Source of the DNA: Tubulanus polymorphus
Taxonomy: Eukaryota > Animalia > Nemertea
Assembly: GCF_964204645.1 (NCBI RefSeq)
Contig: NC_134029.1
Coordinates: 5,394,001 to 5,458,000, forward strand
Reading direction: 5' to 3'
DNA length: 64,000 nt
A model generated the notes under the pieces. It saw only the letters and a program-made list of their open reading frames with translations. It made no database searches and was not told where the DNA came from. The position numbers and the translations under genes are program-made. How positions within the stretch are numbered: position 1 is the first letter of the stretch; each line of letters opens with the position of its first letter. Below are positions 46,541-50,776 of this stretch, one piece after another.

Positions 46541-47574
46541 TTATGCGCGACAATCCGGTACAGATTTCGATCCCCACCAGAAACCAACAACTTTCTTCCA
46601 ACAGATCTTTTTATAATCCATTCCTTGTGCACCGTTGCAGTCACTGTCTGATTTGCAACGAACTTTGTAGCTACCCATTTTAGGGATCCATTTGTCCATA
46701 TAAGTTCCAGATTTTTTCATTTCCTTTTTGACGGTAATCCAACACCTGGTCTTGGAATTTTCCCCGCACTGTCGCCAGCAGTTCTTTATTGCCCCGCTAT
46801 CCTGAAATCAACATCGTCAACACGATTTATTATCAATATCATGATGTACCGATTGAAAATGTCGCGCGTAAGAACATTTAACAACGTATAGAAGCTATAT
46901 GATTAAATATAAAATGTGGGAGACTACGTTGTTTTTCAAAGCATCCCGGTGGTGGCCGTTTCACAGACCGACTTGACTCCATCGAATGCATTTATTTTAA
47001 GTCGTTCTAGTGAAACGCTGAACCATGAACCATTTGTGCTTTCATTTGAAATAATATACGAAGGTCGTTTCAAAAAGACTGCAAATTTCAGTTTGCAAAC
47101 GATGCAGATACTAATGATGAATAGAAATTAATGGAGGTCAACTTACGATGCGGCACCCATAACTCATACCATACTTGTCACAGCTTCCTCCATACTTGCA
47201 GCCTCCATGTTTACGCCGTACCAATCTGTCTACTTCTGAAATTATTCAACGAACACTCACTGCAGTCGACCGTGAAGACTAGTACCTGAACCTTGGAAGA
47301 GTTTAAGCCAATCATTTCAAATATTACATTGTGGAAATACATTGTGTCGATTCTTGTTTTTACACAATTTTGCCAAGATTATCTGATATTGTCAAGAAAA
47401 ATACCAACCCGAAAGCTCTTCCTGCTCCTCGGTTTCCTGCTTTTCCTGGGCAATGCTGCGACCCATTTCATCGAGCAATTCACCTAACTCATCAATAGCT
47501 GCATCTTCAACAGTCTCACCTAGGACACACGCAGCCAAGCCCAAGAATGAGATGGACAATATCCACAATCTCAT
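46541..47574 (-). CDS. Secreted Cys-rich prepropeptide A (171 aa, 10 Cys in the mature region), toxin or antimicrobial-like
   Basis: Exons 47574-47409, 47235-47147 and 46801-46541 splice in frame. Signal peptide [19 protein letters not shown], acidic pro-region, LVRRK site, then [107 protein letters not shown]. Confidence 0.85.
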
Positions 47575-49688
47575 TATGTCCAGCTATTTTGTCTTGGAAA
47601 AATATTCTCTACAAAAAAGAATCACGGGAACATTCTCCCGCGCGGTCATCAATTAACTTATCTAGATACATATCGAAATTGCAATCTTAAAATTTCAAAA
47701 GTTTCGAAAAGATAAGCTTATAATAATGGCCTATTGAAGAATGAATTGTGTTTTGTAGCCAATGTGTATCAATGTTATCTACTGTAAAGATATCTTTTAA
47801 CTTATATGTATAGAATATCATCTACTCAATTACGATAAAATCGAAATAAATCGAATATAGGAAACTGACAAAAGTAATGACGATTGAACATAAACATTAG
47901 AATAAACATTAAATTTCATAAACTGAAATACACGAATATCAAGAAATCGCATTTTGTCAGTTACCTTCCGTTCAATCCCACGCCTTAACGTCGACTGCGA
48001 TTTTCAAATAATTATCTATAGTTAATCAGGGCACTAATTCCAATCAACAGGGTCTTTTTTCTCATAAACCTGAAAAAAAGTTCTTGTCTGGGCCTCACGG
48101 TCGGTCGTCAAACATCAATCAAATTAGATTCGCAGTGACCTACAACTATGACAAGACATATTATGAACTCATCAAAGAAAATGTGTATGGAAAATAACAG
48201 ATCGGTTCACATCATTTCATTTTTTTTAAATAACAACTACTAGTTTTTTTTACTTCAATGGGGCAATCAAGTTCAAGCTATTACTAGTTTCTTTTAGAAT
48301 ATTGCCCTATAAAATAGTTTCTTGGTGGATTCTATTCAAGTGTTTCTTAGACATCACCACATAGAATACAAAAATTCGGCTAGTTTGAAAAGGAGACCTC
48401 GATGGAGCAAAGTGAATGATGAAAAATATCAATACAAGTGCTGTTATTGGGGGTTGGATGGGAATCCAGATAACCCTCCCTGAATTATGATAGGCTAAAA
48501 AGTCTTGACCGACCTTTCATGCAATCATTTTCCCAAAACTCTGCTGGATAATATCTCTTAAATTAAAACTTCCCGGCTGAGGTACCATTCCAATGGAGAA
48601 AATGGTCTGGATTTATTCAAAGCGCCCTTCAAAAAGTTGGTATTGTTTTTTCTCATCTATTCTGTCGCAAGATTGCGGTAGTATAGCTAAATGCTCAAAA
48701 TTCACCGCCGTATTGTAGTTACATGCATGTGCGCACGGTAGAAACGACCATTAGAATTCCGTAGAAAATTAAAGGCAAAATGTTCACAAAAAAATACTAT
48801 GAAAACATTATCAAGTTGTTCTGAGATAACGCCTAAAACCTGTAGGTGAATGTTTTCTCTCGATCAATACCAAAAAACAACCACTTCCATGGCTCTTCAC
48901 AAAAATACCCAACGACTCACTCTTATAATAGAAGATTGACTACTGTACCTGTAGAAAACTCTGCGACACGCACACGTATATCCCAGATACAAATGACATA
49001 GAATTTATTTCCAATACTGTATTTAGATTAAATTTTTGTATTGGTACAAATAATGCGTAAATGCATAAACCGTAACAACAGGATATACAGATAAGCTTGC
49101 TTACAACAGTACATATCGCAAGCAACCATTCCGGTGATCAAAATCTAAAAATTTCGGATCTTTTTTTCCTATTCGGAAAATGAAAAGTAGATTCATCATG
49201 ATCACAAGAAAAGAAATGTACGCCCGAGTCTCAGTAACGGGAACCGAATCTGGAAGTAGACTTCAACCTCTTTTGAGATTTTTGCCCATACGTTATACCT
49301 CGATTATATGGAATTATTTCGCTCGCGCAAATAGAATAATATTCACATGACAAATCCAGTAAATCAACTTTATTCTTCACAGCAAAAAGAACATGATATG
49401 AGTCAAGAATTATGCGGAATGAAAGATTCCATTAAGTGAAATTGAGTAAATAATCTACATGTGCGGGTCAGAAACTTTGTGCATATGCTATAAGAGAAAT
49501 GTCAATTAGAAACGTTTTTCAGAGCCGCGTGATAAACCTTAGTTTGATAGGTAGACGTTTTCAGATTTGACATTTCTCATATGTGTATTTTATTATTTTT
49601 GAAAATAAGTATTTTGGGCTTTGAAAAACGCAATAAAGTTGTTTCTTAGATTTCAATAGTGCACGCATATTGATCGACGATTTATTGA

Positions 49689-50776
49689 TTATCGTTTACA
49701 ATTTGGTACATTTTTAACCCACAACCAGAACCCCGTTTGTTTCGGCCAACAAATCTGTCTGTAATCCATTCCTTGTGCACCGTTGCACTCATCGTCTGAT
49801 TTGCAAGGAACTTTGTATTTGCCCTTTTTCGGGACGTAACCGTCAAAAATAGATCCTGCTTTTGGTATTTCCTTCTTAACAGTAATCCAACATCTACTCT
49901 TGGAATTTGCTGCGCACTGTCGCCAGCAGTTCTTTATTGACCCGCTATCCTGAAATCAACATCATCAAGACGATCTATCTATTATCAATGCACCTAGTAT
50001 GCATTATTTAAGGGGTTTATATATATATATATATATATATATATATATATATATATATATATATATATATATATATATATATATATATATATATATATAT
50101 ATATATATATATATATATATATATATATATATATATATATATATATATATATATATATATATATGTATATATATATATATATATATATATATATATATAT
50201 ATATATATATATATATATATATATATATATATATATATATTTCAAGAAATATATACGAAGGTCGATTCAAAAATTAAAAATTTCAGTTTGCAGATAGTAA
50301 TGATGAAAATATTTTAATGGAGGTCAACTTACGATACGACAGCCATAACTGTAACCGTACTTGTCACGTTTTCCTTCGGTATACATGGGTTTAGAATATG
50401 TAAACCTACGCCGTACCAAACTGACTTTTTCTGAAAATATTTAATGAACACTCACTGCAGTCGACTGTAGATTGGGAGAACAAACGTCGACTAGTACCAG
50501 AACATTGGAAGAGGTTTTGACAATCTACATTGTGGAAGGTGCGTCAATTACTGTATTTTCAAAATTTTGCAATGGTTACATCTATAATTAGCAGGAAAAA
50601 TACCAACCCGAAGGCTCTTCCTGCTCATCGGCCTCCTGATTTTCTTCAGCAACGCTTCGCCCCATTTCCTCGAGAAATTCCTCTAACTCGTTCATAGCTG
50701 CATCTTCAACTGTCTCGCTACCTAAGACACACGCAGCCAAGCCAAAGAACGCGATGATCAATATCGACGATCTCAT
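49689..50776 (-). CDS. Secreted Cys-rich prepropeptide B (175 aa, 8 Cys in the mature region), tandem paralogue
   Basis: Exons 50776-50608, 50430-50333 and 49949-49689 have the same phases as copy A. The mature region is [115 protein letters not shown]. Confidence 0.85.
50018..50240. repeat. Long (AT)n microsatellite in the last intron of prepropeptide B
   Basis: Read directly from the sequence; it explains the YIYI ORFs in the track. Confidence 0.97.

What the first reader, a model, noticed from the sequence alone, without database searches (positions are those of the whole stretch)
46541..50776. Tandem pair of secreted Cys-rich prepropeptides with toxin/antimicrobial architecture, largely invisible to the ORF track
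Seen: two 3-coding-exon genes encode a signal peptide, a strongly acidic pro-region, an RR(K/R) site and a Lys/Arg/Trp-rich mature domain of about 105-110 aa. They share the scaffold YGC-x9-CWRQC-x7-CW...C-KSDxxC...C-W...C. Cys spacing and exon phases are kept while inter-Cys loops and the aromatic C-terminal segment diverge. A TATA box sits upstream of copy B. Established: acidic propeptide plus dibasic cleavage plus cationic disulfide-rich domain is the layout of many venom, mucus toxin and host-defence peptides. Inference: a lineage-specific effector family that I cannot assign to a named family.
Basis: partly seen in the sequence, partly recalled or inferred. Interest (0 to 1): 0.8.

Follow-up and report, generated by a model that had tools for sequence, protein, structure and literature searches.

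The report
Twin ribbon-worm victoriocin-like defence peptides
Two adjacent genes of a ribbon worm encode cysteine-rich, positively charged proteins that are predicted to be secreted and cut to a 12 kDa form; they probably belong with a fungal antifungal protein and a caterpillar bristle allergen, and likely serve in defence.

Summary
Two intact tandem genes, each with three coding exons, lie on the minus strand. Copy A equals an uncharacterised RefSeq protein of Tubulanus polymorphus and is spliced in a public run. Copy B is intact but was not found in the protein collection. Both have a signal-like start, an acidic pro-region, a basic cleavage site and a 107-109 aa mature part of net charge +13. 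Two corrections: A has 10 mature cysteines and B has 8, and the TATA box is not shown to be a promoter. Pfam, PDB and searches with the window's own proteins found no relatives. A recalled motif fetched an 8-cysteine family without a Pfam model. It holds fungal IDI-2/victoriocin proteins and, by eye, the caterpillar allergen Tha p 2. All 8 cysteines, a YG and a W line up, but scores are modest (hhalign 63-78%), so I put homology at about 70%. Best reading: a divergent, cationic host-defence prepropeptide pair with diverging loops. Tissue, cleavage and activity are untested.

The parts
47409..47574 (-). Copy A coding exon 1: signal-like peptide (about residues 1-19) and acidic pro-region
   Evidence: spliced in contig of X3; matches P0004
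47147..47235 (-). Copy A coding exon 2: end of pro-region, RLVRRK site, extra Cys pair, YGC motif
46541..46801 (-). Copy A coding exon 3: 7 Cys, Lys/Trp-rich, stop codon
46176..46540 (-). Copy A 3' untranslated region; AATAAA at 46457 and 46181
   Evidence: contig cover down to 46237; signals
47965..48147 (-). Copy A 5' untranslated exon, spliced to 47608
   Evidence: joint 47608/47965 in X3
48949..48978 (-). Further upstream untranslated exon of copy A (5' end not known)
   Evidence: joint 48145/48949 in one contig, 28 letters on the short side; two RefSeq accessions with the same protein
50608..50776 (-). Copy B coding exon 1: signal-like peptide and acidic pro-region
   Evidence: 71% aa identity to A
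50333..50430 (-). Copy B coding exon 2: VRRR site and YGC motif, no extra Cys pair
49689..49949 (-). Copy B coding exon 3: 7 Cys, stop codon
   Evidence: 65% aa identity to A
49369..49688 (-). Copy B predicted 3' untranslated region; AATAAA at 49686, 49594 and 49374, the last two matching those of A
50018..50241 (.). (TA)n microsatellite inside intron 2 of copy B
51218..51385 (-). Copy B counterpart of A's 5' untranslated exon; holds the TATA-like site at 51272
   Evidence: not shown to be transcribed

Best explanation
The two genes are tandem duplicates whose products are predicted to be secreted and cut at a basic site to release a 12 kDa cationic, disulfide-bonded domain that is probably a divergent relative of fungal victoriocin/IDI-2 and caterpillar Tha p 2 and likely acts in defence against microbes at the body surface. 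Shown: gene structure, splicing of copy A, charge layout, collinear cysteines. Inferred: the acidic pro-region neutralises the +13 domain until a prohormone convertase or furin cuts at RR(K/R). Also inferred: four core disulfides (by analogy to the predicted Tha p 2 pairing, C83-C134, C93-C140, C97-C169, C105-C152 in A, plus C68-C74 in A only) hold a three-stranded sheet. The Lys/Trp-rich inserted loop and C-terminal loop would bind microbial membranes or walls, and their divergence would give the copies different targets.
For: Splicing. Charge. All 8 conserved Cys plus Y81, G82 and W94 align with 16 family members. hhalign probability 63% (E 7e-5) for whole A and 78% (E 1.8e-5) for the exon-3 pair. 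With a profile free of window sequences, 0-1 of 1000 shuffles reach A's score and 4-5 of 1000 reach B exon 3's. The two exon-3 frames rank first and second by full score among 1610 frames of the window. The profile search returned 32 other proteins among 709 candidates, 7 named IDI-2; most show a signal, pro, basic site, Cys-domain layout. IDI-2 is homologous to the antifungal victoriocin (PMC3689799, passages) and is believed to act as a defensin (PMC4835503, passage). dN/dS is 0.57 overall (95% bootstrap 0.37-0.90), 0.12 in the core and 1.65 in the 18-codon inserted loop.
Against: Absolute scores are low: 7-13 bits against 37 or more for true members, and chance frames preselected for the motif score 13-23 bits. 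By best-domain score A's exon 3 ranks only fourth in the window. I chose the family from memory because of the motif, so the shuffle counts overstate significance. The family's Trp before the fourth Cys is absent, spacings are longer (9 against 4, 28 against 10-14), and family domains are near neutral (mean +0.2). The structure model stays weak (pLDDT 59.9, pTM 0.39). The loop value of 1.65 rests on 18 codons chosen after the fact. No activity, tissue or cleavage data exist.
Confidence: 0.5

Rival explanations
1. The pair are venom or deterrent toxins aimed at animals (prey or predators) and released from proboscis or skin glands.
For: Nemertean mucus and proboscis hold unannotated Cys-rich peptides with tissue-specific expression (PMC12846013, results section). 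The probable relative Tha p 2 occurs in caterpillar venom bristles (PMC11335235, passages). Exons 2 and 3 (77%, 79%) are less alike than intron 1 (84%, aligned columns only), a pattern I recall from venom gene families.
Against: No CC doublet of the knottin type that I recall for alpha-nemertides. No Pfam toxin family. The motifs are absent from the stored parts of three nemertean toxin supplements (two were cut when stored). Only two copies in this window.
Confidence: 0.22
2. The likeness to IDI-2/Tha p 2 is convergent, and this is an unrelated, lineage-restricted Cys-rich family, as the first reader supposed (its function may still be defensive).
For: Only the protein itself is found among 1.84 billion representatives and in two word searches. 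Profile scores are low. The Atlas links a fungal member to its Idi-2 cluster at TM 0.85 but gives no such hit for P0004, whose model there is poor.
Against: Eight collinear Cys, the YGC, CWxxC, CW and C-x5-C motifs, and the same precursor layout. With Cys fixed, 8 of 100000 shuffles match the signature (bounds widened to admit the query).
Confidence: 0.3
3. The products are signalling ligands (neurohormone or pheromone) or structural components of the mucous tube, with no defence role.
For: Signal, acidic spacer and dibasic site also fit hormone precursors (general knowledge).
Against: Three diagnostic motifs are absent from a neuropeptide-precursor supplement that names Tubulanus 317 times (PMC8557429). 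Fast loop divergence and strong positive charge are unusual for hormones (inference).
Confidence: 0.15
4. Copy B is a silent, recently decayed duplicate and only copy A works.
For: Copy B was not returned by two protein searches that should share words with it. It has a long (TA)n tract in intron 2.
Against: Open frames, canonical splice sites, all 8 core Cys and the poly(A) signals are kept, and dN/dS between the copies is below 1.
Confidence: 0.2

Closest known systems
Victoriocin / IDI-2 (fungal secreted antifungal or defensin-like proteins)
   Same: Signal, pro-region, basic site, Cys-rich domain; YGC, CWxxC, CW and C-x5-C motifs collinear
   Different: Worm domain is about 108 aa against about 73, with a 5-residue and a roughly 14-residue insertion. 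Net charge is +13 against about 0. It lacks the Trp before the fourth Cys and the terminal CxC.
Allergen Tha p 2 of processionary caterpillars and similar invertebrate peptides
   Same: The Tha p 2-like row seen in a supplement matches, by eye, the animal-like members L089 and L095. It has an 8-Cys core plus one optional pair. A three-stranded antiparallel sheet is predicted for it (PMC11335235) and three strands appear in the model here.
   Different: No long acidic pro-region with a dibasic site and no cationic Trp-rich loops. Its last two Cys are 3 apart against 16 here. Its function is unknown beyond IgE binding.
Alpha-nemertides and other nemertean mucus peptides
   Same: Same phylum; secreted Cys-rich precursors
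   Different: Those are cystine-knot peptides (PMC5864730, search listing). The spacing here has no CC doublet, and the domain is far longer than I recall for nemertides.

Membership tests
IDI-2 / victoriocin / Tha p 2-like 8-Cys family | Eight collinear conserved cysteines | tested here: met
   C83, C93, C97, C105, C134, C140, C152, C169
IDI-2 / victoriocin / Tha p 2-like 8-Cys family | [YF]GC, CWxxC, C[WY] and C-x5-C motifs | tested here: met
   (42 of 46 members and copy A match a signature whose bounds were widened to admit A)
IDI-2 / victoriocin / Tha p 2-like 8-Cys family | Trp directly before the fourth Cys, and a 4-5 residue spacing after YGC | tested here: not met
   Arg in that place, spacing 9
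IDI-2 / victoriocin / Tha p 2-like 8-Cys family | Significant profile score | tested here: inconclusive
   hhalign 63% and 78%; 7-13 bits, above nearly all shuffles but far below true members
IDI-2 / victoriocin / Tha p 2-like 8-Cys family | Secreted precursor with a basic processing site | tested here: met
   sequence and hydropathy; SignalP not available, cleavage not shown
IDI-2 / victoriocin / Tha p 2-like 8-Cys family | Same fold and disulfide pairing | tested here: inconclusive
   pLDDT rose to 70-77 in the core with the family alignment, which is partly circular; no solved family member in PDB
IDI-2 / victoriocin / Tha p 2-like 8-Cys family | Antifungal or antimicrobial activity | not testable with these tools
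   needs an assay
Knottin toxins (alpha-nemertide type) | C-C-CC-C-C framework (recalled) | tested here: not met
   no adjacent Cys; spacings 9, 3, 7, 28, 5, 11, 16
Pfam antimicrobial, toxin and neurohormone families | Pfam match above cut-off | tested here: not met
   6 exon peptides scanned one by one; only sub-threshold Nodulin_late (E 0.4) and KRTAP (E 0.003)

The most novel reading that the evidence does not exclude
Fungal victoriocin/IDI-2 antifungal proteins and the caterpillar venom allergen Tha p 2 form one uncurated superfamily of disulfide-rich defence proteins with no Pfam model and no solved structure. The ribbon worm has turned it into a new cationic, Trp-rich mucus antimicrobial or toxin whose two copies are diversifying in an inserted loop.
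Probability: 0.35. Interest if true: 0.7.

Novelty: new variant of a known kind. Interest (0 to 1): 0.47.

Why it matters
Few peptide toxins or antimicrobials are characterised from early-branching ribbon worms. This gives a concrete, transcribed candidate with a scaffold unlike the known nemertean toxins. If the homology holds, it links a fungal antifungal protein to an animal venom allergen of unknown function and suggests a testable activity for both. I found no paper joining them in the library searched.

Tried and rejected
No whole genome is held, so paralogues outside the window were not counted; within the window there is no third copy. Pfam, PDB by sequence, 1.84 billion representatives with exon 3 of A and two word searches found nothing beyond copy A. 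The Atlas gave no usable hit for P0004. Fold searches of both models found nothing with E below 0.001; the wide search was filled by the pro-region helix, so the mature domain was barely tested. No RNA holder is listed by record; X3 is treated as RNA only because its contigs skip GT..AG introns. Copy B has no cover in X3, which shows nothing about its expression. Motif scans gave no family member at 25 bits or more in 0 of 39 viral and 0 of 46 prokaryote loci, against 26 of 61 metagenome loci (16 of these helped build the profile). Sub-family profiles did not place the worm proteins with the fungal or the animal-like group, so no claim of horizontal transfer is made. Two nemertean mucus-proteome supplements (PMC12846013, PMC11768458) were too large to read and might hold homologues. 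The original victoriocin papers were not read. Four look-ups of earlier scan findings were tried; three ran and showed nothing. The TATA box as promoter was considered and left unsupported.

Full report
Observation. Both genes lie on the minus strand. Translating each exon separately gave open frames, GT..AG introns and matching phases. Copy A is 171 aa and copy B 175 aa. A search with exon 3 of B among longer proteins returned 1 protein of 3 candidates, LOC141905907 of the ribbon worm Tubulanus polymorphus. It matches the exons of copy A exactly and has two RefSeq accessions. Of 4 runs laid, one (X3) has a 1037-nt contig that joins A's three coding exons and a 5' untranslated exon; a further joint points to another upstream exon. 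So A is transcribed and spliced as modelled. B was not returned by the protein searches.

Anatomy. Each precursor has a hydrophobic start, a pro-region of net charge -13 or -14, a basic site (RLVRRK, VRRR) and a mature part of 107 or 109 aa with net charge +13. A has 10 mature cysteines and B has 8; the two extra ones in A sit together in exon 2, so both counts are even. The copies are 65% identical. dN/dS is 0.57 overall (bootstrap 0.37-0.90), 0.12 in the first 27 codons of exon 3 and 1.65 in the next 18. The last value rests on few codons and a region chosen afterwards. The TATA-like site at 51272 lies in the counterpart of A's untranslated exon, so it is not evidence of a promoter.

Family. 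Pfam, PDB, 1.84 billion representatives and the Atlas gave nothing but the protein itself. The pattern YGC, CWxxC, CW, C-x5-C reminded me of the Tha p 2 and fungal IDI-2 proteins; this was recalled and served as a lead only. A degenerate DNA scan of metagenome contigs returned 61 loci. I kept 16 complete, non-duplicate ones by eye and dropped truncated, duplicate and chance hits. All 8 of their core cysteines, with YG and W, align in order with copy A. hhalign gave 63% and 78%. A profile without window sequences scored A at 6.9 bits and B exon 3 at 7.8; 0-1 and 4-5 of 1000 shuffles reached these. A search with the joint alignment gave 33 proteins of 709 candidates: copy A and 32 others. All with an organism name are fungal and 7 are named IDI-2. 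A 46-member profile (the 16 loci plus 30 of those proteins) ranked the two exon-3 frames first and second by full score among 1610 frames of the window. The fungal and animal-like subsets score each other at a median of about 26 bits. The family has no Pfam model and no solved member.

Evidence against membership. True members score 37 bits or more and motif-preselected chance frames 13-23, while the worm exons score 9-13. One invariant Trp is missing, two insertions are needed, and the charge is far higher than the family mean of +0.2. The AlphaFold model improved from pLDDT 47.9 to 59.9 with the family alignment, reaching 70-77 over residues 81-110 and 131-140 with three strands. This is partly circular, and the pro-region rose too. 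Fold searches found nothing. I put homology at about 70%.

Literature seen. [quoted passage not shown] PMC4835503 (passage): IDI-2 is induced by bacteria and believed to act as a defensin. PMC3597494 (passages): victoriocin is a broad-spectrum antifungal protein. PMC11335235 (passages and one supplement row): Tha p 2 has 10 Cys, a predicted triple antiparallel sheet, a predicted disulfide pairing and unknown function; its row resembles loci L089 and L095 by eye. PMC12846013 (abstract and results): unannotated Cys-rich peptides occur in palaeonemertean mucus. Motif searches in four nemertean supplements were blank (two were cut when stored), and two others could not be read. No paper in the library holds Tha p 2 together with IDI-2 or victoriocin.

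Mechanism. Most likely the precursor is secreted, the acidic pro-region masks the cationic domain, a convertase cuts at the basic site, and the disulfide-bonded domain attacks microbes through its Lys/Trp-rich loops (0.5). A toxin against animals (0.22) and a signalling or structural role (0.15) are the functional rivals. Convergence (0.3) and a silent copy B (0.2) are separate questions. Everything after splicing is inferred.

Verdict. A real, partly annotated gene pair and probably a new cationic variant of a little-studied defence protein family. It is a good assay candidate but not a new kind of system. Interest 0.47.

Noticed in passing
window 44563-46169 (+): Popeye-domain (POPDC) gene, spliced in X3. 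Its stop codon lies 68 bases from the covered end of copy A's transcript, so the two 3' untranslated regions probably overlap tail to tail.
   Followed up: partly
window 47147-47408 and 50333-50607: Intron 1 is more alike between the copies (84% of aligned columns) than exons 2 and 3 (77%, 79%), and dS in the mature part (0.52) is well above the intron distance; unexplained.
   Followed up: partly
window 52803-54557 (-): High-copy non-LTR retroelement fragment with a reverse transcriptase domain just upstream of copy B.
   Followed up: partly
window 16837-17847 and 18690-19706 (+): Second tandem duplication in the window: two single-exon rhodopsin-type GPCR frames; the first also matches the Srw chemoreceptor family.
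   Followed up: no
window 8186-9667, 20099-21427, 22456-24048, 26092-27522: Housekeeping neighbours by Pfam: p66/GATAD2-like, acyl-CoA thioesterase/BAAT, FAST-kinase-like (weak), and an eIF2B-like nucleotidyl-transferase fold.
   Followed up: no
window 51549-51700: Short dispersed repeat with very high summed contig depth in run X3.
   Followed up: no
window about 55100-58600: Long strand-skewed tandem repeat array.
   Followed up: no
L046, L086, L089: Small secreted-looking members of the same 8-Cys family in metagenome contigs, closer to Tha p 2 than to the fungal group; hosts unknown.
   Followed up: partly
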